DNA from: a virus
Lineage: Duplodnaviria; Heunggongvirae; Uroviricota; Caudoviricetes
Reading direction: 5' to 3' (one strand)
Virus record (IMG/VR): IMGVR_UViG_2541047850_000006
Span: 1 to 42,657 of that record
DNA length: 42,657 nucleotides
Below the pieces are notes generated by a model that had not been told where the DNA came from, ran no database searches, and worked only from the letters and a program-made list of their open reading frames with translations. The position numbers and the translations under genes are program-made. Below, piece by piece: positions 33,666-42,657 of the stretch (position 1 is the stretch's first letter; every line of letters begins with the position of its first letter).

Positions 33666-34922
33666 CTATCTCGAACCACCAAGAATAACACGGTTTTTTA
33701 CTGGATACCTACGATGTACTGGGTAGCCCAATGCGTCTGCACTATGCTCAATGCCACCTGTCTTATCCATATCTCGTGTTCCAGGCTTGTAGATGACCTT
33801 TTCCAGCGAATCAATCAAATGCTTGCATTTCGGATCGATATACAGCCTGATATCCCCAGATGCGGTCATCAGCATTCGGTTAACTGCATTAACACGATCC
33901 GCAATTGGCGGGTGTTTTTTTGAATAATCGACACGCAAGAATCCCTTCTCTTTGAATATGTCGACGTCAGACTCACCGCGAGCATGTTGACGATAAGCAC
34001 CAGCCGGAGCAGGAAATACCGTTATCTGTGATTTCCATCGCCAGAAACGTCTCTCCAGCTCATCACACACTTCTGCCGTGTTAGAGGAAAAGAGCACCAA
34101 TTCATCAATTGCCCATAGCTCACCGTTTGGCTGAGGTTGCAAAATTACGGAAGACATCGGGTCAATGTTGAAGTCCTGCCCTACCCATATAGGCAACCGA
34201 GGGTTGAACTGAAGCGGTTTTACATGCACGTTACGATCGAACGGGTAGTAAACGCGCCCGGACATGTTCTCAAAGCTGGCTAGGTACTCCTGAGCGAACG
34301 ATTTCGGGTCCATATCGTTCTTAGCAGCTTCAATTTCCGCCGTAGGTACGAACGGAGAATCGGCAGTTACAAACTGCCAGCTTTTCCACTGTCCCTTTCT
34401 TTGCAGCTCTACGTTCTGGCCTATAGTCCACAGTTTGTGAAATTCCGAGAAGCCTTTTGGCGTACCAATGATCAGTGCACCGCCACGTGTCGATGAAAGA
34501 GTAGGTCGTAACACCTTGTACCAGGTGTCAGCCTTCATATCCTGAAATTCATCAAGAACTACAAAATGCAACGCTACGCCGCGCAGAGTGTCAGGCTTAT
34601 CAGCACCTTTGAGGGCGATCTCCGAACCGTTCTTCAACACGATTGTCATCGTGGTGTCGTTCTTTTTTCTAACCCACTTACGAGGCAGAACTTCCTGTAG
34701 ATCGTCCCACAAAATCTGGCGAGCCATCTGGTAAGTAGGAGCGACATACCAGACCCTTTGCTTTTTTTCCTTTGCCGCCGCACGAATAATAGTGGAGATC
34801 GACAACCGGGATTTTCCCCAGCGTCGACCAGCACAAACAACTTTAAATCGATGGGGAGACTGGAAGACTTTCATCTGTCCAGAATGCAGTTGCACAAGAC
34901 TGAGCGAGGACGGGATTGCCAT
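33666..34922 (-). CDS. Terminase large subunit
   Basis: Walker A-like VVCAGRRWGKS, Walker B-like VVLDEFQDM, C-terminal nuclease-size domain; overlaps the small-subunit stop. Confidence 0.8.
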   Translation of the reverse strand: MAIPSSLSLVQLHSGQMKVFQSPHRFKVVCAGRRWGKSRLSISTIIRAAAKEKKQRVWYVAPTYQMARQILWDDLQEVLPRKWVRKKNDTTMTIVLKNGSEIALKGADKPDTLRGVALHFVVLDEFQDMKADTWYKVLRPTLSSTRGGALIIGTPKGFSEFHKLWTIGQNVELQRKGQWKSWQFVTADSPFVPTAEIEAAKNDMDPKSFAQEYLASFENMSGRVYYPFDRNVHVKPLQFNPRLPIWVGQDFNIDPMSSVILQPQPNGELWAIDELVLFSSNTAEVCDELERRFWRWKSQITVFPAPAGAYRQHARGESDVDIFKEKGFLRVDYSKKHPPIADRVNAVNRMLMTASGDIRLYIDPKCKHLIDSLEKVIYKPGTRDMDKTGGIEHSADALGYPVHRRYPVKNRVILGGSR

Positions 34923-35554
34923 TATTCGTCCTCCCCTTCACTTCCATCATCTGTCGCATCAAATTCGCTTAGAGCTTCTTCTTCCAACGTCTCAAGCAAT
35001 TCGTCATCGATGATTTCAGGCTCGTCGTCTTCCTGACGTAATTTCGCCACCTGGGAAGGCGTAAGTTCGCCAAATACCAGGTTCGGAATTTCTTCCTCGT
35101 CATTTTCTGCATGATCCATACCCAACGCTTTGGACGAAACTTCAAAGCATTTTGCAAGGGTATTACTTGCTCTCTGTAAGCTCTTGAGAGAATCCTCAAT
35201 CACCCCTAAAGGCTTACCCTCACGTTTGGCCGTAGTGACTTCGACCATCACCATCTGCCCCAACGCATACGCCCAGCCGTCATAACGTGTACGACGTTCT
35301 TCTATCTTTTCCGCACGGGCTTTAGCGCGAAGCTCTGCGTCAGATTTAAGAGACTCACGAACCATCTTCCCAACAGAGTCCGCGCCTTTCTCTAATCCTC
35401 GCTTTTTGAAATGTCTGGAGAGTGTTTCACGACGAATGCCGTACTCTTCCTCCAGCTTTGAGAGTGTATATTCGCCTGACGTCCATTTGGCTTCAGCTTC
35501 GGCCCACTCCGCTGGTGTCAGGCGAGTTTTTACCTCGTCTTTTTCGACAGTCAT
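34922..35554 (-). CDS. Terminase small subunit candidate (N-terminal HTH, acidic C-terminus)
   Basis: Position immediately upstream of TerL; HTH-like LSKLEEEYGIRRETLSRHFKKRG; GAGGGA SD. Confidence 0.55.
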   Translation of the reverse strand: MTVEKDEVKTRLTPAEWAEAEAKWTSGEYTLSKLEEEYGIRRETLSRHFKKRGLEKGADSVGKMVRESLKSDAELRAKARAEKIEERRTRYDGWAYALGQMVMVEVTTAKREGKPLGVIEDSLKSLQRASNTLAKCFEVSSKALGMDHAENDEEEIPNLVFGELTPSQVAKLRQEDDEPEIIDDELLETLEEEALSEFDATDDGSEGEDE

Positions 35555-35640: not shown

Positions 35641-35738
35641 GTTTAATTAGGTCTGGGCATGTCTTATTAAGCCTGCTTCTGTATATATATTTAATAAGTT
35701 ATTTATTATTTATATACAGAAGCAGGTCTTTAAAATAA
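35641..35738. repeat. Long palindrome B (core 35661-35716 CCTGCTTCTGTATATA...TATATACAGAAGCAGG with extended imperfect symmetry GTCTGGG...CCCAGAC); copy 2 of 2, inverted relative to copy A
   Basis: Read directly; lies between the wHTH gene stop and the terS start region. Confidence 0.75.
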
Positions 35739-35751
35739 GCTCCCAGACCGA

Positions 35752-36027: not shown

Positions 36028-36918
36028 TTATGCCGGTAAAGCAATTTCTAACGGTTTATCCAAAGGTTGTTTGTCGAATGCCAGCAGTGGCAGCGTGTCA
36101 GGCAGTCGACGACCAAAGTCAGGGTTTCGGTACACACCATACAACGGAGACGTAAAGCTCAGGTTGTGAATGTCCTTGAGCAGCTTCACAATGCTGGCCT
36201 CGTCCACCAGACTGTCGGCAATGTCCTGAATCGTCGTGCCACGATTCCGCCCAGCTTTTGCCAGGGAACTGTTCTTGTGGTAGTCCGCCACCAGATCACG
36301 CAGTGCACGGCGACGACGAGACTCGCTCATTGCGAACAACTCTTTGACGATCGCCTCGTTATCACCCGTGTCGGAACGGAAATGGCGCTGGAATACACGC
36401 AGTGCACTTTCATAGCTCTTCGGTCGCTCAGGGCGGATAAACTTAAACCCTGCTTTCATGGCGAAGGGATTGTATTTGCTCATCGAGGACTGGATCTCAA
36501 TGATTGGCCGGTCATGCATCCTGCTAACCAGGTTAATCATTCGATAAGAGACGCCTACGCCACGATACTGAGTATCCACAACTGAGCGACTGATCACCGC
36601 AAAGTTGTTATTCACGTACCGACCCCAGTACTGGTTAGCCACGGTGGTATTAGTGGTTGGTTTCAACTTAGGAAACATGCGGTGGCGAGGTGCCAACAGT
36701 AGTTTCGGGTAAGCCATAACCACGACGCCCACCAGACGATCATCAAGTTCGCAGCGATAGTAAGTTGGCGCGAAAGGTTTGCCGTCTGTTTTGTAGTGAA
36801 GCGACTTAAGAGCGTGCCAGTCCTCTACAGTTCCCTTTGTAACAGTCATTCGCTCCAGAAAGTCCAGATGACGCGGAAACTCTTCAGGGCGGTAGCGTTT
36901 AATGATGATGTCCGTCAT
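36028..36918 (-). CDS. GNAT-fold (acyl-CoA N-acyltransferase-like) protein with ~130-aa C-terminal extension
   Basis: QYRGVGVSYRM fits the GNAT Q/R-x-x-G-x-G/A acetyl-CoA loop, preceded by beta-strand-like YYRCELDDRLVGVVVMAY; its start overlaps the ATPase stop. Confidence 0.5.
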   Translation of the reverse strand: MTDIIIKRYRPEEFPRHLDFLERMTVTKGTVEDWHALKSLHYKTDGKPFAPTYYRCELDDRLVGVVVMAYPKLLLAPRHRMFPKLKPTTNTTVANQYWGRYVNNNFAVISRSVVDTQYRGVGVSYRMINLVSRMHDRPIIEIQSSMSKYNPFAMKAGFKFIRPERPKSYESALRVFQRHFRSDTGDNEAIVKELFAMSESRRRRALRDLVADYHKNSSLAKAGRNRGTTIQDIADSLVDEASIVKLLKDIHNLSFTSPLYGVYRNPDFGRRLPDTLPLLAFDKQPLDKPLEIALPA

Positions 36919-39007: not shown

Positions 39008-40567
39008 ATGACTGTTCGGATTGTATCTAACGCAGTAAATGCGCTTATTTCTGGCGCAGATGACAAGGTAAAGCAACTGGTGCAGCAAATGTTGAGCTAC
39101 GAAGTCGAGGCTGGCGACTGGAAGGGCACAAGCACAATGTTCAACTGGAGCAAAAACTCGTTCCCTGCTGGCTTTGCCAAGCCCGTGGCGGCTAATTTGA
39201 ACAAGGCGGGCATCAAATGTGTTCATATCCGCAAAGACAAAGCCCCGGCGCTTGGTAAACCAAATCCGGCGGTTAACCCATTCCCATACAATCCTGATTA
39301 TGCGTATCAGGATCAGACTGTGGAAACACTGGTTCGAGAGGGAATGATGATTGCGCAGATCGCTACTGGTGGCGGGAAATCTAACGTTGCCTGCAAAGCA
39401 GCTGCACGTATCGGTCGAATGACATTATTTTTAACAACCCGCTCTGTTCTGATGTTTCAAATGGCCGAAAACTTCCAGAGATCCATCGACTACCGCGCCA
39501 AAAATGGCGAACCGTGGTTAAAAGACCAAAAGGTTGGAGTCATTGGCTCGGGTGAGTTCCAGGTATCACGACATATCAACGTCGCTACAGTTCAAACTCT
39601 TGCAAGTTTCCTCGAAGAACCACCACGCGATGCAACACCAGATAAGAAAAGCTACCACCTCAAACGTCGGGAGTTGGTGAAACGCTTCCTTTCAAGTGTC
39701 TCTCTTCTTATTCTGGAAGAGGCGCATGAGTCTTCAGGCTCAAATTTCTATGACATCGCCAGATTATGTGTGAACGCAGACTATCGTCTGGCGCTTACAG
39801 CCACGCCGTTCATGAAGGATTCGACGGAAGCCAACATGCGCCTGATGGCGGTGGCCGGGCGAATTGAAATTAAAGTCACAGAAAAGTATCTGATTGATCG
39901 AGGCATTCTGGCAAAGCCGTACTTCCTTTATCATAAAGTTGCCTACAAGCCAGACGAGGCCAGAATCAAGGCCGAACTTGCCAACAAACACCTCAATTTT
40001 AGAGTTGGTATGAGCACCGCCTACCAAAAGGCTTATCAGTTGGGGATCGTGTATAATTTGGGACGTAATGAGGCCATTGTTCGCGAAGCATTGCTCTATA
40101 AGCAACATTCTCTCAATTGTATGACTCTGGTTCGTCTTAAACGCCACGGGCAAATCCTGATGGAAATGATGAAAGAGTCCGGCCTTAGAGTTGACTTCAT
40201 CTATGGGGAATCGAACCAGGCGACAAGGCAAGCAAAGCTGAACAGTTTAGCGTCTGGCGAAATAGATGTTTTAATAGGCTCGACTATTCTGGATGTCGGT
40301 GTTGATGTGCCAAGCGTTGGTGCGGTCATTCTGGCTGGTGGTGGGAAAGCAGAAGTTGAAATGAGGCAGCGTGTCGGTCGTGGCTTACGAGCCAAGAAGA
40401 ATCAGGCAAACGTGTGTTTTATCACTGATTTCATTGACATTAGCAACAAATACCTGTTGTCTCACTCTTATGAGCGAAAACACATCATCGACACCACACC
40501 TGGCTTTGCGGAAGGTGTATTGCCTATTGATGGCGCATTCGATTTTGGAGTTCTGAAACGAGATTAG
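39008..40567 (+). CDS. Superfamily-2 helicase (DEAD/DEAH-box, ResIII-like), 519 aa
   Basis: Walker A ATGGGKS, DEAH-like LEEAH, motif III LTATP, motif VI-like GRGLR; ATG with AGGAAAGAGG SD. Confidence 0.75.
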   Translation: MTVRIVSNAVNALISGADDKVKQLVQQMLSYEVEAGDWKGTSTMFNWSKNSFPAGFAKPVAANLNKAGIKCVHIRKDKAPALGKPNPAVNPFPYNPDYAYQDQTVETLVREGMMIAQIATGGGKSNVACKAAARIGRMTLFLTTRSVLMFQMAENFQRSIDYRAKNGEPWLKDQKVGVIGSGEFQVSRHINVATVQTLASFLEEPPRDATPDKKSYHLKRRELVKRFLSSVSLLILEEAHESSGSNFYDIARLCVNADYRLALTATPFMKDSTEANMRLMAVAGRIEIKVTEKYLIDRGILAKPYFLYHKVAYKPDEARIKAELANKHLNFRVGMSTAYQKAYQLGIVYNLGRNEAIVREALLYKQHSLNCMTLVRLKRHGQILMEMMKESGLRVDFIYGESNQATRQAKLNSLASGEIDVLIGSTILDVGVDVPSVGAVILAGGGKAEVEMRQRVGRGLRAKKNQANVCFITDFIDISNKYLLSHSYERKHIIDTTPGFAEGVLPIDGAFDFGVLKRD

Positions 40568-40569
40568 TT

Positions 40570-40848
40570 ATGAGCGAAAAGAAAACAACTTATTGCCAAG
40601 TGGCATTGTCTGATAAGGCCAATGAAAAACTTGGAAAATTCCAAATAAAACTCAAAGAGAAAAAAATCAAGATGTCTAAGGCTGAAGTTATCAATGCCAT
40701 TCTGGAGACGATGACTATGGCTGAATTTGACAAAGTCACATCTGCCGTTGGGGTTTCCGCTAAGACGCGTGAGAAAATCATGCGCATCTATGAAAACTCC
40801 AATATGACAAAAAAAGATCTAGAGGAAATACTGAGCAGGTTGCCGTAA
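40570..40848 (+). CDS. Small ribbon-helix-helix-like protein candidate (92 aa)
   Basis: N-terminal beta-strand-like TTYCQVAL followed by two helices (SDKANEKLGKF..., MSKAEVINAILETM); begins 3 nt after the helicase stop; visibly AT-rich. Confidence 0.4.
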   Translation: MSEKKTTYCQVALSDKANEKLGKFQIKLKEKKIKMSKAEVINAILETMTMAEFDKVTSAVGVSAKTREKIMRIYENSNMTKKDLEEILSRLP

Positions 40849-40880
40849 CATTTCATATTTACCCCCTATCTACTAATTCT

Positions 40881-40916
40881 ATGATGTGCTCACTTGTTAG
40901 AAAGGAGCACATCATG
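40881..40916 (+). promoter_or_regulatory. 11-bp perfect inverted repeat ATGATGTGCTC-N13-GAGCACATCAT enclosing the SD (AGGAG) and ATG of the downstream gene
   Basis: Read directly; either an mRNA hairpin sequestering the RBS or a palindromic operator. Confidence 0.5.
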
Positions 40917-41480
40917 AGTTGGTTAAAAGAATTATCATTTGTTGACACCACTGGCGCTAAGAAAAATCATTCTTTCTGGAAAGTCAGCGATCCTTCTGAT
41001 TTTCTTGTTGGCGTTAATGCTGCTTTTGAATTGCTTAACTTTTATCAACGTTATCCTGAAATGAAACACAGTCCACTCCTGTACAGAATAACAAACGATA
41101 TGAATAGGTCTGGTTTATTATCAAGTGAGTCAGCGAAAGGCTTTTTTAGCAAAATAACGCCACACATATCATTCGATGCTGCAAACGAAATTGATTATCT
41201 ATCCACGAAACCTCAAGAACAATTATCTGTACTACCTGAGAAAAAAGAAAGACGAATTGCCAGCATTGAAAATATATCGAAAGAGCTTCGCACAACAACG
41301 TTGAGGCTGCTGAACTTTCTTACGCTACTAAATTGGATAGATGATCAAACATTGATTCCATCAACCGATGCGTTGGATAACAGAGTCCTTAGGCTGAACA
41401 AAAAATCGCAATTTGGTTTTGTGTTCACCAAAAAAGGTGAAGATTTAATCAAAAGAAAATATAGATTATTGAATGATTAA
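40881..41480 (+). CDS. Hypothetical protein (about 188 aa from ATG at ~40914), AT-rich
   Basis: Track ORF; the ATG inside the inverted repeat is preceded by AGGAG; no recognisable domain. Confidence 0.5.
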   Translation: MMCSLVRKEHIMSWLKELSFVDTTGAKKNHSFWKVSDPSDFLVGVNAAFELLNFYQRYPEMKHSPLLYRITNDMNRSGLLSSESAKGFFSKITPHISFDAANEIDYLSTKPQEQLSVLPEKKERRIASIENISKELRTTTLRLLNFLTLLNWIDDQTLIPSTDALDNRVLRLNKKSQFGFVFTKKGEDLIKRKYRLLND

Positions 41481-41486
41481 TAGTCT

Positions 41487-41536
41487 ACATGCAGGTGTAT
41501 GAGAGCACCTGCATGTGACATTCATCACATTTTTTG
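41487..41536 (+). terminator. Terminator-like hairpin (11-bp stem ACATGCAGGTG/CACCTGCATGT) with a downstream T-run
   Basis: Read directly; the T-tract is displaced ~15 nt from the stem, so efficiency is uncertain. Confidence 0.45.
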
Positions 41537-41624
41537 AAGTGCACACCTCCGGCTGAAAAAAATTCTTGATTGGCTGAATGATATTTGTAGGCTTCATCGC
41601 TGAGTTTGGTCGAAGGGATAGCTA

Positions 41625-42200
41625 ATGGCTCTTTCAAATACACAACTTCACACGATATTGGATAAAGCTTCATATGTATCAAATGGGACACTTAGCGAAA
41701 ATAACATTCAGATACAACGGGGGAAAGAAACGAAAGATAAAATTCACGCTAAAGGTTTCTACTTCGGAAAGAGTTCAGCATTACGAGAATCTTATTCAAA
41801 AAACAACCCTTACTACATTTATTTAATTTCACCAGACAATGAGGAAAGACGAGATGATTATTCATTGGTCATTTTCCCTTTCCAGATAAAAGAAATACTT
41901 CCTGTGATCGAAAGTATAGATGGTATTACCCCAGGATATATTCAGTTAAGCTCAAACTTCAATACGTTCAAAATTCACAATCGCTTAAAAAGTGATTCAT
42001 ATTGTGGCGTAGGCTACTCTATAAAGGTTGAGAACGAAGACAGTCTATGGGAACTTATTGTGCAGATCAAGAAAAGGCTTGAGTTACCTAGAGGAGATAA
42101 GAACAGACTATCGACGCTACCTCAGAATGGATTACCTAAGACAAAAGAGGAAAATACACCTCAAAAGCTGATTGTAGATCTGCTCAACAAACGCTCATAA
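41625..42200 (+). CDS. Hypothetical protein (191 aa), AT-rich
   Basis: Track ORF; no confident domain. Confidence 0.5.
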   Translation: MALSNTQLHTILDKASYVSNGTLSENNIQIQRGKETKDKIHAKGFYFGKSSALRESYSKNNPYYIYLISPDNEERRDDYSLVIFPFQIKEILPVIESIDGITPGYIQLSSNFNTFKIHNRLKSDSYCGVGYSIKVENEDSLWELIVQIKKRLELPRGDKNRLSTLPQNGLPKTKEENTPQKLIVDLLNKRS

Positions 42201-42207
42201 ACTCTCA

Positions 42208-42582
42208 TTGTCAAAGACGGTTAAAAAGATGAAGTCTAAAAAAATTCAATTTTTTTCTATGGCACTCTTGGCATTCTATATAGGAAATACAGTAGCCAAA
42301 CCTTTAACGCCCGTTCAGCAAGATTACATTAAAAATATTATAGAAAAACAATTACTGGCCCCGGATGCAGCTAAATACAAATTCCCAGATCACGTTGAAG
42401 GTAGCAATACATATTGTTTCAAACTAAATGCGACTAACTCATATGGTGGGTATACAGGTTACAGATGGGTACAAATTCCTTACAATGACGTGTTAACCAA
42501 GAACAGCAACACTATTGTAGATCTAAATATCCTACCTAAAGAGGTTTTTGAAGAAAGCTGTAAAGAATTAGGGTATAAGTAG
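42208..42582 (+). CDS. Small secreted/periplasmic protein candidate (124 aa) with N-terminal signal peptide
   Basis: MKSKKIQFFSMALLAFYIGNTVA resembles a Sec signal peptide; two Cys in the mature part. Confidence 0.5.
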   Translation: MSKTVKKMKSKKIQFFSMALLAFYIGNTVAKPLTPVQQDYIKNIIEKQLLAPDAAKYKFPDHVEGSNTYCFKLNATNSYGGYTGYRWVQIPYNDVLTKNSNTIVDLNILPKEVFEESCKELGYK

Positions 42583-42657
42583 CTCATCACTTGGAAGCAT
42601 ACCCTCGACAATATCAGAAAGATTTGTCGAGGGTTCGGACTTTCCCTATGTCTGAAC

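What the first reader, a model, noticed from the sequence alone, without database searches (positions are those of the whole stretch)
40881..40916. Perfect 11-bp inverted repeat that encloses the Shine-Dalgarno and start codon of the first island gene
Seen: ATGATGTGCTC...(13 nt incl. AAAGGAG)...GAGCACATCAT, with the ATG at ~40914 inside the right arm. Inference: either an mRNA stem that occludes the RBS (translational control, possibly coupled to the upstream RHH-like ORF) or a palindromic operator for that RHH-like protein. Either points to tight repression of the downstream gene, as expected for toxic or defence-related products.
Basis: partly seen in the sequence, partly recalled or inferred. 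Interest (0 to 1): 0.45.

Follow-up and report, generated by a model that had tools for sequence, protein, structure and literature searches.

The report
RNA hairpin masking a gene's start
A strong, evolutionarily conserved stem-loop buries the ribosome-binding site and start codon of an accessory gene in an SSU5-like phage-plasmid. It most likely keeps that gene nearly silent on read-through transcripts, which is a well-known type of control found here in a new gene family.

Summary
The inverted repeat is real: arms 40881-40891 and 40905-40915, with a 13-nt loop. It is non-random and is the core of a roughly 22-bp RNA hairpin (40872-40923; -28.5 kcal/mol, z = -7.6) that pairs the Shine-Dalgarno GAG, the AUG at 40914 and codons 2-4 of a 188-aa gene.

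The window is an SSU5/pHCM2-like phage-plasmid, 99.9% identical to PhiR41_1. Every homologue of this gene that I found, down to relatives detectable only by profile search, has a hairpin with the SD in its 3' arm. The arms show compensatory changes or are entirely different in sequence, and the loops range from 13 to 24 nt.

Of 46 genes in the window, this one has the least accessible translation start. Published RNA-seq of phage-plasmid Cyrano, whose hairpin is identical, shows a 7-43-fold RNA drop exactly across the hairpin.

Best reading: a cis-acting mRNA structure that silences the gene on transcripts reading in from the helicase/92-aa operon, in the manner of T4 e/soc/I-TevI and IS200 tnpA.

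The RHH-operator idea and the 'toxic/defence' idea are not supported. The product has a MerR/Par-like winged-helix domain. How the hairpin is ever opened is unknown.

This is a new member of a known kind, of moderate-to-low interest.

The parts
40570..40848 (+). Upstream 92-aa gene (phrog_1466; the CYRAN_117 homologue). It is the last conserved gene of the helicase transcription unit, and its transcripts read into the hairpin.
   Evidence: ORF list; PHROG hit; CYRAN_117 is transcribed about 12x above prophage background in lysogens.
40858..40866 (+). Conserved pyrimidine tract TTTACCCCC (TTTTTCCCC or CTCCTTTTTCCCC in relatives), 6-14 nt 5' of the outer helix. Its role is unknown. It could be a single-stranded 30S standby or S1 site, or an anti-SD-like element.
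   Evidence: Seen in nearly all family members, including the distant L090. Not tested further.
40858..40885 (+). Weak sigma-70-like match TTTACC-16-TATGAT, whose -10 overlaps the left arm. A transcript started here would lack the 5' arm.
   Evidence: 9/12 match. Kept in most of the window's own clade but absent from the second clade and distant relatives. Cyrano RNA-seq shows no strong transcription of the gene in lysogens.
40872..40879 (+). 5' strand of the outer helix (ACUAAUUC). U40880 is a one-base bulge.
   Evidence: MFE and centroid structures. The left flank differs between clades in step with codons 2-3.
40881..40891 (+). Left (5') arm of the perfect 11-bp repeat, ATGATGTGCTC. It contains two in-frame ATGs that are by-products of the palindrome.
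   Evidence: The ATGs lack an SD, and the equivalent ATG is out of frame in the second clade.
40892..40904 (+). 13-nt loop ACTTGTTAGAAAG. CUU (40893-40895) can pair with AAG (40902-40904), leaving a 6-nt apical loop. The 3' end of the loop is the start of the SD.
   Evidence: Loop sequence and length vary across the family, from 13 to 24 nt.
40901..40907 (+). Shine-Dalgarno AAAGGAG, 6 nt before the AUG. All seven bases are paired in the MFE structure.
40905..40915 (+). Right (3') arm, GAGCACATCAT.
40916..40923 (+). 3' strand of the outer helix (GAGUUGGU): the G of the AUG plus codons 2-3 and the first base of codon 4.
40914..41480 (+). The controlled gene, 188 aa (phrog_13473; the CYRAN_116 homologue). 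It has an N-terminal helical domain and a confident C-terminal MerR/Par/RacA-like winged-helix domain.
   Evidence: PhiR41_1 annotates the 188-aa start.
41487..41535 (+). Perfect 11-bp repeat (ACATGCAGGTG/CACCTGCATGT) directly after the stop codon, followed by a small GTGA/TCAC hairpin and a T6 run. It is a terminator-like end to the one-gene cassette.
   Evidence: Conserved in Cyrano.

Best explanation
The repeat is the core of a cis-acting mRNA stem-loop. It has about 22 bp: an 8-bp outer helix, a one-base bulge, an 11-bp perfect helix and 3 further pairs in the loop.

Transcripts begin upstream, at the helicase/92-aa operon, which is active in the plasmid (lysogenic) state, and run into the 188-aa gene. 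On those transcripts the hairpin pairs the Shine-Dalgarno sequence, the AUG and the next two codons. The 30S subunit therefore cannot bind and the gene is essentially untranslated.

The same hairpin marks the point where RNA abundance collapses. There are two likely causes. The untranslated downstream RNA may be exposed to Rho-dependent termination and decay. Alternatively, or in addition, the hairpin may act as a 3'-end, stabiliser or processing structure for the upstream message.

Shown: the structure, its conservation and covariation with the gene family, its extreme inaccessibility relative to other genes, and an RNA boundary at this position in a relative with an identical hairpin.

Inferred: that translation is blocked, and the cause of the RNA drop.

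Unknown: what, if anything, opens the hairpin. Candidates are RNase III cleavage of the roughly 22-bp helix, a weak internal promoter in this clade, a trans-acting factor, or simply a constitutively very low output suited to a DNA-binding protein.
For: (1) Thermodynamics: -21.1 kcal/mol for the core (z = -5.05) and -28.5 kcal/mol for the 57-nt element (z = -7.58).

(2) Of 46 genes in the window, this one has the most stable -40..+25 fold (-24.5 kcal/mol against a mean of -12.3, sd 5.2). It also has the lowest SD-AUG unpaired probability (0.07 against a median of 0.48).

(3) The hairpin travels with the gene, not with the upstream gene. Elements that carry the 92-aa gene followed by other island genes lack it (L012-17, L019-30).

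(4) Conservation with change:
- The clade at 43% protein identity has ATCATGTGCTC/GAGCACATGAT, a G-C to C-G swap. Its helices of 12-18 bp run into codons AAC-TAT, with a correspondingly different left flank.
- L060/L071 have a G.U pair.
- L061 and L062 have 1- and 4-nt insertions that shift the AUG yet keep both helices.
- Profile-level relatives have unrelated arms, CGCUCCGUU/AACGGAGCG (L090) and UUUCAUCUC/GAGAUGAGA (L088). Both still pair the SD purines in the 3' arm.

(5) Pair counts. The core helix is 100% paired in 11 and in 16 distinct sequences. Overall 87.5% of cells pair, against 26-53% when partners are slid. Six pairs change on both sides. The covariation score is 0.192 against 0.113 in shuffles, with 0 of 500 reaching it.

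(6) All 11 family start regions tested fold with z = -2.7 to -8.4.

(7) Experimental data: PMC9928086, S1 Table. In Cyrano the hairpin region is 95/95 nt identical. Values in log2(FPKM+5) are 5.0-8.4 for the helicase, 6.3-9.9 for the 92-aa gene and 2.3-5.9 for the hairpin gene. That is a 7-43-fold drop across the hairpin in all 10 samples.

(8) No terminator-like site lies between the helicase gene and the hairpin.

(9) The element is single-copy in the roughly 108-kb genome, as expected for a cis element.

(10) Precedent: T4 e, soc, 49, I-TevI and mobE (PMC3014915) and IS200 tnpA (PMC4513863).
Against: No direct measurement of translation exists.

The arms are almost invariant in sequence down to 40-50% protein identity. 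Pairing alone does not require that, so it hints at sequence-specific recognition by a protein or nuclease.

A DNA palindrome would show the same G-C to C-G swap.

The sense-strand preference from G.U pairs holds only in the window's own clade. It is neutral in most of the second clade and reversed in L082, L086/L048 and L090.

The covariation rests on few independent events, and alignment A7 was fitted to the model.

The hairpin persists, slightly shortened, in two lineages where the gene has been deleted down to a few codons (L018/L031/L032 and L029). Either it also serves the upstream transcript or it simply has not yet decayed.

The RNA-seq data are per gene. They do not show whether the drop is at the hairpin or inside the ORF, and a DNA-bound roadblock would give the same drop.
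Confidence: 0.62

Rival explanations
1. DNA-level site: the palindrome is an operator, roadblock or centromere-like site bound by the gene's own winged-helix product, or by another phage-plasmid protein. Binding would block RNA polymerase arriving from the helicase operon and so autoregulate the gene. This could coexist with the RNA role.
Against: Arm spacing varies (13, 14 and 24 nt) and arm length varies (9 to about 20 bp). The helix extends into coding sequence, with the left flank adapting to it. In unrelated arm sequences the one constant is that the SD pairs with an anti-SD-like CUC/CUCC, which an RNA model predicts and a DNA model does not. No conserved promoter overlaps the site. There is a single copy in the genome, unlike centromere arrays. 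The structural match covers a small domain at modest Z.
Confidence: 0.15
2. Transcript-end element: the hairpin mainly serves the upstream helicase/92-aa message as a non-canonical terminator, an RNase III processing site or a 3' stabiliser. Its overlap with the next gene's start would then be secondary.
For: There is a 7-43-fold RNA drop across it, and the 92-aa gene's RNA is about 2.5-fold more abundant than the helicase gene's. A hairpin follows the 92-aa gene in every island class, including a canonical-looking terminator in L012-17. The hairpin is retained where the downstream gene has been deleted. In this clade the helix is about 22 bp, which from my own knowledge is the typical size of an RNase III substrate.
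Against: There is no U-tract after either helix (GAGUUGGUUAAAAG), and the loop of 13-24 nt is far larger than terminator loops. The terminator scan did not flag it. Distant relatives have only 9-bp stems, which are too short for canonical RNase III sites. This reading does not explain why the SD is always inside the 3' arm.
Confidence: 0.15
3. Operator for the upstream 92-aa 'RHH-like' protein.
For: The gene is adjacent. By eye, the N-terminal half reads strand (TYCQVAL), helix, turn, helix (MSKAEVINAILE), which is compatible with a ribbon-helix-helix.
Against: No RHH hit came from Pfam (single protein or 9 members at E up to 10), NCBIfam, a PDB profile search or Foldseek, and the model has pLDDT of only 66. 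The same protein with an identical strand occurs without the palindrome (L012, L019). Clade-2 elements with nearly the same palindrome have a different strand. Arm spacing is variable.
Confidence: 0.04
4. T4 e/soc/I-TevI-type dual-transcript switch in the strict sense: read-through RNA is silent, while a dedicated promoter at or inside the 5' arm makes a translatable RNA that lacks the left arm.
For: TTTACC-16-TATGAT has its -10 inside the left arm, giving a predicted start near 40892 in the loop. It is kept in 6 of 7 sequence variants of the window's clade.
Against: The match is only 9/12, in a region where 13 such sites were found against 7.9 expected. It is absent in the second clade and in distant relatives even at 8/12. 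RNA of the gene is low in all Cyrano conditions sampled. A phage-specific late promoter cannot be assessed with these tools.
Confidence: 0.1

Closest known systems
Inhibitory RNA structures at the translation starts of phage T4 genes e (lysozyme), soc, 49 and I-TevI, and of Aeh1 mobE (reviewed in PMC3014915)
   Same: The SD and/or AUG of a phage gene is paired in a stable helix on longer transcripts that read in from upstream genes, which reduces 30S binding (about 100-fold for gene e). In several cases the gene concerned is an accessory or mobile gene embedded in a conserved operon.
   Different: In T4 a late promoter just upstream of the RBS produces transcripts that lack the 5' arm. Here no conserved promoter was found, so the release mechanism is unknown. 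The helix here is longer and stronger, at about 22 bp and -28 kcal/mol, and its arms are unusually conserved in sequence.
IS200 tnpA 5'-UTR stem-loop (PMC4513863), and, from my own knowledge, IS10/IS50 'fold-back inhibition' of read-through transcripts
   Same: A cis stem-loop sequesters the SD of a gene in a mobile or accessory element and keeps its output very low. A single-stranded C/A- or pyrimidine-rich stretch nearby may serve as a 30S toehold.
   Different: IS200 adds an antisense sRNA and Hfq. No antisense promoter or terminator is evident here. The gene here is not a transposase but a probable DNA-binding protein.
RNase III-processed intercistronic hairpins of phage polycistronic mRNAs (T7 R sites, lambda N leader; from my own knowledge)
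   Same: A helix of about two turns in an intercistronic region of a phage operon, coinciding with a change in RNA abundance.
   Different: Those sites usually lie upstream of the SD and free it on cleavage. Here the SD and AUG are inside the helix, so cleavage of both strands would destroy the start region. Distant family members have only 9-bp stems.
pSK1 Par / RacA / MerR-type winged-helix proteins with palindromic DNA sites
   Different: There is a single palindrome rather than a repeat array, with variable spacing. DNA binding is untested, and no sequence-level homology was found.

Membership tests
RBS-sequestering mRNA hairpin (translational silencing of read-through transcripts; T4 e/soc/I-TevI type) | The SD and/or start codon is base-paired in a stable local helix. 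| tested here: met
   All SD bases and the AUG are paired in the MFE and centroid structures. -28.5 kcal/mol, z = -7.6. Lowest accessibility of 46 genes.
RBS-sequestering mRNA hairpin (translational silencing of read-through transcripts; T4 e/soc/I-TevI type) | The structure is conserved in homologues through compensatory or structure-neutral change. | tested here: met
   G-C to C-G swap, G.U variants, an outer helix that co-varies, and unrelated arms in L088/L090 that still pair the SD. The number of independent events is small.
RBS-sequestering mRNA hairpin (translational silencing of read-through transcripts; T4 e/soc/I-TevI type) | Transcription from upstream genes reads into the hairpin. 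| tested here: inconclusive
   No terminator-like site upstream. The upstream genes are transcribed in Cyrano lysogens, and some RNA of the gene is detected. No nucleotide-resolution data are available.
RBS-sequestering mRNA hairpin (translational silencing of read-through transcripts; T4 e/soc/I-TevI type) | A dedicated promoter placed so that its transcript lacks the 5' arm. | tested here: not met
   Only a weak 9/12 sigma-70-like site, present in the window's clade and absent in the second clade and distant relatives. Phage-specific promoters cannot be assessed.
RBS-sequestering mRNA hairpin (translational silencing of read-through transcripts; T4 e/soc/I-TevI type) | Reduced 30S binding or translation, relieved by arm mutations. 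| not testable with these tools
   Needs reporter fusions or toeprinting.
Intrinsic (Rho-independent) terminator | G+C-rich stem, a loop of 3-8 nt, and a U-tract immediately 3' of the stem. | tested here: not met
   Not reported by the terminator scan. The 3' flank is GAGUUGGUUAAAAG and the loop is 13-24 nt.
RNase III processing site | A double-stranded RNA helix of roughly two turns. | tested here: inconclusive
   About 22 bp in the window's clade and 12-18 bp in the second clade, but only 9 bp in L088 and L090.
RNase III processing site | Cleavage in vivo or in vitro that depends on rnc. | not testable with these tools
   No end-mapping data are available.
Ribbon-helix-helix repressor with its operator | The regulator has an RHH fold. 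| tested here: inconclusive
   The sequence pattern is compatible by eye, but there is no hit in Pfam, NCBIfam, PDB sequence or Foldseek searches, and the model is of low confidence.
Ribbon-helix-helix repressor with its operator | The operator co-occurs and co-varies with the regulator's DNA-reading strand, at fixed spacing. | tested here: not met
   The same strand occurs without the palindrome, a different strand occurs with nearly the same palindrome, and spacing is 13-24 nt.
RNA thermometer | A marginally stable SD-pairing helix with mismatches that melts at 37-42 C. | tested here: not met
   A perfect 11-bp helix plus an 8-bp helix, -21 to -29 kcal/mol at 37 C.
Any curated Rfam family | A covariance-model match. 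| tested here: not met
   Nothing at or near the hairpin, even at E up to 10.
MerR/Par-type winged-helix protein with an autoregulatory site | The gene product has the winged-helix DNA-binding fold. | tested here: inconclusive
MerR/Par-type winged-helix protein with an autoregulatory site | The protein binds the palindromic DNA. | not testable with these tools
   Needs EMSA or footprinting.

The most novel reading that the evidence does not exclude
The near-invariance of both arms across 40-50% protein divergence means the element is read sequence-specifically by a trans-acting factor. The most interesting candidate is the gene's own MerR/Par-like winged-helix product. Under this reading, one palindrome would work both as an mRNA hairpin that blocks translation and as a DNA (or RNA) binding site that feeds back on the gene. 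This dual-level autoregulatory switch would control a conserved accessory gene next to the ParB/helicase module of SSU5-like phage-plasmids.
Probability: 0.12. Interest if true: 0.55.

Novelty: new member of a known kind. Interest (0 to 1): 0.33.

Why it matters
SSU5/pHCM2-like phage-plasmids are common in clinical Enterobacteriaceae, and almost nothing is known about how their accessory regions are regulated.

This element shows that at least one long-standing occupant of the variable region carries its own built-in silencer. That explains how a gene can sit directly downstream of a lysogeny-expressed operon and yet be nearly off.

It also corrects a widespread annotation. The 199-aa start, used for example for CYRAN_116 and a 483-member protein cluster, is an artefact of the palindrome. 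It flags the product as a probable DNA-binding protein rather than a toxin.

The principle itself, a hairpin that sequesters the RBS, is textbook. The value here is therefore local rather than conceptual.

Tried and rejected
- Rfam scan at a permissive threshold: nothing at the hairpin.
- Search for further copies of the arms or of the whole element, in the window and in the complete PhiR41_1 genome, by mismatch search and by covariance model: none, so there is no regulon or repeat family.
- Genome-contig scan for the protein family: only one locus.
- afdb50 fold library: unavailable.
- Foldseek of the 92-aa model: uninformative because the model is of low confidence.
- PADLOC and NCBIfam for the island proteins: nothing meaningful. 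The SspC hit at 12.8 bits was ignored.
- Translational coupling with the 92-aa ORF: rejected on distance and frame.
- RNA thermometer: rejected on stability.
- FljA-like (Flag1_repress) gene as a hairpin-specific partner: rejected as specific. It is a backbone gene present in every class, with or without the hairpin.
- G.U versus A.C tally as a test of RNA against DNA: my crude count was confounded by flanking pairs. The energy comparison shows sense-strand preference only in the window's clade, so I do not rely on it.
- The covariance model did not detect the most distant hairpins (L088, L090). These were found by inspecting the gene's upstream region.

Full report
**Observation**

The sequence at 40881-40916 reads ATGATGTGCTC / ACTTGTTAGAAAG / GAGCACATCAT / G. 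The repeat finder confirms two 11-nt arms (40881-40891 and 40905-40915) that are 100% complementary and 13 nt apart.

- The SD AAAGGAG (40901-40907) straddles the loop and the right arm.
- The G of the ATG (40914-40916) is the first pair of a further 8-bp helix, 40872-40879 with 40916-40923, which includes two G.U pairs and follows a one-base bulge at U40880.

Three more pairs (CUU/AAG) form inside the loop, so the element is a hairpin of about 22 bp with a 6-nt apical loop.

Folding energies:

| Segment | MFE (kcal/mol) | z-score | Shuffles as good |
|---|---|---|---|
| 42-nt core | -21.1 | -5.05 | 0/200 |
| 57-nt element | -28.5 | -7.58 | 0/200 |

Perfect repeats with arms of at least 11 bp and loops of 3-30 nt are expected about 0.4 times in a sequence of this size and composition. 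The window has six. The other five follow stop codons and mostly precede T-runs, or, at 35674-35724, form a long AT-rich intergenic palindrome. Only this one covers a ribosome-binding site.

**Context**

The window is part of an SSU5/pHCM2-like phage-plasmid. It is 99.9% identical to Escherichia phage PhiR41_1 and 97-98% identical to phage Cyrano (pLF82). Hundreds of related plasmids exist in Escherichia, Klebsiella, Salmonella and other genera.

The local gene order is:
- a ParB-like gene on the minus strand;
- a UvsW-like DEAD/DEAH helicase (39008-40567);
- a 92-aa gene (40570-40848);
- the hairpin;
- a 188-aa gene (40914-41480);
- further small genes.

Neither small protein has a Pfam, NCBIfam or PADLOC assignment. 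They fall in PHROGs of unknown function.

Thirty viral contigs carry the 92-aa gene, and what follows it differs between them:
- the 188-aa gene with the hairpin;
- a secreted-protein gene behind a canonical-looking terminator (L012-17);
- a lipoprotein gene (L019-30);
- decayed remnants of the 188-aa gene (L018, L029).

A FljA-like regulator gene (Pfam Flag1_repress) is present in every class a few genes further on, and it marks the far edge of this variable region. 'First island gene' is therefore a fair description. The gene is nevertheless an old occupant, because homologues sit at the same position in elements from E. coli, Klebsiella, Salmonella, Citrobacter, Cronobacter and Enterobacter.

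**The hairpin belongs to the downstream gene family**

I collected the region upstream of the start codon from 56 loci, which gave 22 distinct sequences. I added two relatives detectable only by profile search. The family has just 21 hits among 1.8 billion representative proteins.

| Group | Arms and helices |
|---|---|
| Window's clade | ATGATGTGCUC/GAGCACAUCAU. L060/L071 change one pair to G.U. L061 and L062 carry 1- and 4-nt insertions before the AUG yet keep both helices. |
| Second clade (about 43% protein identity; E. coli, Salmonella, Klebsiella and others) | AUCAUGUGCUC/GAGCACAUGAU, a G-C to C-G double change. Helices of 12-18 bp run into codons AAC-UAU or AAU-UAC, with correspondingly different left flanks. 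|
| L080 (50% identical to the clade-2 query protein) | Same arms as the second clade, with a 24-nt loop. |
| L090 and L088 (most distant) | Unrelated 9-bp arms: CGCUCCGUU/AACGGAGCG and UUUCAUCUC/GAGAUGAGA. Both have 15-nt CA-rich loops, and the SD purines are again in the 3' arm. |

All eleven start regions tested fold better than their shuffles, with z from -2.7 to -8.4.

Pair counts on a MAFFT alignment of 11 sequences and on a model-based alignment of 16 sequences agree:
- the core helix is 100% paired;
- 87.5% of all cells pair, against 26-53% when partners are slid;
- six pairs change on both sides;
- the covariation score is 0.192 against 0.113 in shuffles, with 0 of 500 reaching it.

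The independent events are few, and the second alignment was fitted to the model, so these figures are supportive rather than conclusive.

**Effect on the gene**

I compared 46 non-overlapping genes of the window, each folded from -40 to +25 around its start:

| Measure | This gene | Other genes |
|---|---|---|
| Fold stability (kcal/mol) | -24.5 (most stable) | mean -12.3, sd 5.2 |
| Mean unpaired probability of SD-AUG | 0.07 (lowest) | median 0.48 |

The upstream in-frame ATGs at 40881 and 40884 yield the widely annotated 199-aa product (P0002, CYRAN_116). They lack an SD and exist only because the right arm contains CAT. In the second clade the equivalent ATG is out of frame. PhiR41_1 annotates the 188-aa start.

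**Experimental evidence from the literature**

The LF82 study (PMC9928086) re-analysed RNA-seq for phage-plasmid Cyrano, whose hairpin region is identical to the window's over 95/95 nt. Its S1 Table gives log2(FPKM+5) across 10 samples:

| Gene | Product | log2(FPKM+5) |
|---|---|---|
| CYRAN_118 | helicase | 5.0-8.4 |
| CYRAN_117 | 92-aa gene (listed among genes expressed in lysogeny, 12x background) | 6.3-9.9 |
| CYRAN_116 | hairpin-controlled gene | 2.3-5.9 |

After removing the pseudocount, RNA falls 7-43-fold across the hairpin in every condition. The upstream operon is therefore on in the plasmid state, and the hairpin coincides with a sharp expression boundary.

Several mechanisms would produce this drop:
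- a translation block followed by Rho-dependent polarity and decay of the naked RNA;
- termination or processing at the hairpin;
- a DNA-bound roadblock.

Per-gene data cannot separate these.

**Testing the alternatives**

*Operator for the 92-aa protein.* By eye its N-terminal half fits a strand-helix-helix pattern. No tool confirmed an RHH fold. Its putative reading strand is identical in elements without the palindrome and different in elements with almost the same palindrome. Arm spacing is also variable.

*Translational coupling.* The stop codon of the 92-aa ORF lies 32 nt before the left arm, the ORF is in a different frame, and intergenic distances in relatives are 62-148 nt.

*Intrinsic terminator.* There is no U-tract, the loop is large, and the scan did not flag it.

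*T4-style internal promoter.* TTTACC-16-TATGAT has its -10 in the left arm. It is weak and restricted to the window's clade.

*RNA thermometer.* The helix is far too stable.

*Rfam.* No match.

*Repeated operator set.* The element is single-copy in the whole genome.

*FljA-like partner.* The gene is present regardless of the hairpin.

**The gene product and the main rival**

The product is therefore more likely a DNA-binding protein than a toxin or defence effector.

Both arms are also near-invariant in sequence down to 40-50% protein identity while the loop drifts. Together these two facts keep a DNA-level reading alive: the protein could bind its own palindrome as an autoregulatory roadblock.

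Several observations count against that reading as the main function:
- arm spacing and arm length both vary;
- the helix extends into coding sequence, with the non-coding flank adapting to it;
- in unrelated arm sequences the constant feature is SD paired to an anti-SD-like sequence.

The strand-asymmetry argument is weaker than it first appeared. The sense RNA is 4-9 kcal/mol more stable than the antisense in the window's clade. The two are about equal in most of the second clade, and the antisense is more stable in L082, L086/L048 and L090.

**Conclusion**

The finding is real and functional. It is best explained as a cis-acting mRNA hairpin that sequesters the SD and AUG of a conserved accessory gene on read-through transcripts from the lysogeny-expressed helicase/92-aa operon (confidence about 0.6).

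It works like the inhibitory start-site structures of T4 e, soc, 49, I-TevI and mobE (PMC3014915) and the IS200 tnpA leader (PMC4513863). It fails one defining feature of the T4 switch, the conserved internal promoter. I therefore file it under the general kind, an RBS-sequestering hairpin, and not under that specific mechanism.

Two things remain unexplained: what opens the hairpin, and why its arms are so conserved in sequence.

Noticed in passing
window 35674-35724 (wider 35650-35750): A perfect AT-rich palindrome with arms of at least 14 bp (CTGCTTCTGTATATA...), nested inside a second inverted repeat (GGTCTGGG...CCCAGACC). About -48 kcal/mol on either strand. It lies in the intergenic gap between the minus-strand ORFs 34922-35554 and 36028-36918. 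It could be an origin, a packaging site, a bidirectional terminator or a protein-binding site.
   Followed up: no
window 41487-41535: A perfect 11-bp inverted repeat immediately after the stop of the 188-aa gene, followed by a small hairpin and a T6 run. It is conserved in Cyrano. The 188-aa gene is thus bracketed by strong hairpins at both ends, like a self-contained cassette.
   Followed up: partly
window 42601-42634: Another perfect 11-bp inverted repeat (CCCTCGACAA.../...TTGTCGAGGG), just after the 124-aa ORF (42208-42582) and near the window end.
   Followed up: no
window 40858-40866; the same position in L033, L036, L080, L083 and L090: A pyrimidine tract (TTTACCCCC here; TTTTTCCCC or CTCCTTTTTCCCC in relatives) is conserved 5' of the hairpin, even in the most distant family member. 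It resembles an anti-SD sequence and could be a standby or S1 site, or could take part in an alternative pairing with the SD.
   Followed up: partly
window 40881-41480; P0002; Cyrano CYRAN_116: Many records annotate a 199-aa product that starts at the ATG inside the left arm (a cluster of 483 member sequences). That start has no SD and is out of frame in the second clade. The 188-aa start at 40914 is the conserved one.
   Followed up: yes
L018, L031, L032 (E. coli / E. albertii) and L029: In two lineages the 188-aa gene has been lost except for a few decayed codons, yet a slightly shortened hairpin with G.U pairs remains after the 92-aa gene. Either the hairpin also serves the upstream transcript or the deletions are recent.
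   Followed up: partly
L019-L030, about 20-45 nt after the 92-aa gene stop: In the island class that carries a lipoprotein gene, a different 7-bp hairpin (GGGAGAC...GTCTCCC) encloses an SD-like GGAG and an in-frame ATG upstream of the lipoprotein start. Start-site hairpins may be a recurring feature at this hotspot.
   Followed up: no
plasmid hits H16-H22 (Escherichia albertii, about 62 kb): Several 62-kb E. albertii plasmids carry window 40300-41700 at 98.3% identity, although typical SSU5-like elements are about 108 kb. They may be deleted derivatives or a different backbone that acquired this module.
   Followed up: no
hit H75 (NZ_JBWDPP010000001.1): One E. coli phage-plasmid has an IS5 insertion within the stretch homologous to window 40300-41700. 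The exact insertion point relative to the hairpin was not determined.
   Followed up: no
window 39008-40567: The UvsW-like helicase gives moderate PADLOC hits to PbeA helicases (E = 6.7e-23). This is probably generic superfamily-2 similarity rather than evidence of a defence system.
   Followed up: no
Cyrano CYRAN_117 = window 40570-40848: The 92-aa gene is one of the genes the LF82 study found expressed in lysogeny (12x background). Its RNA is about 2.5-fold more abundant than that of the helicase gene upstream, which suggests either an internal promoter or stabilisation of its 3' end by the hairpin.
   Followed up: partly
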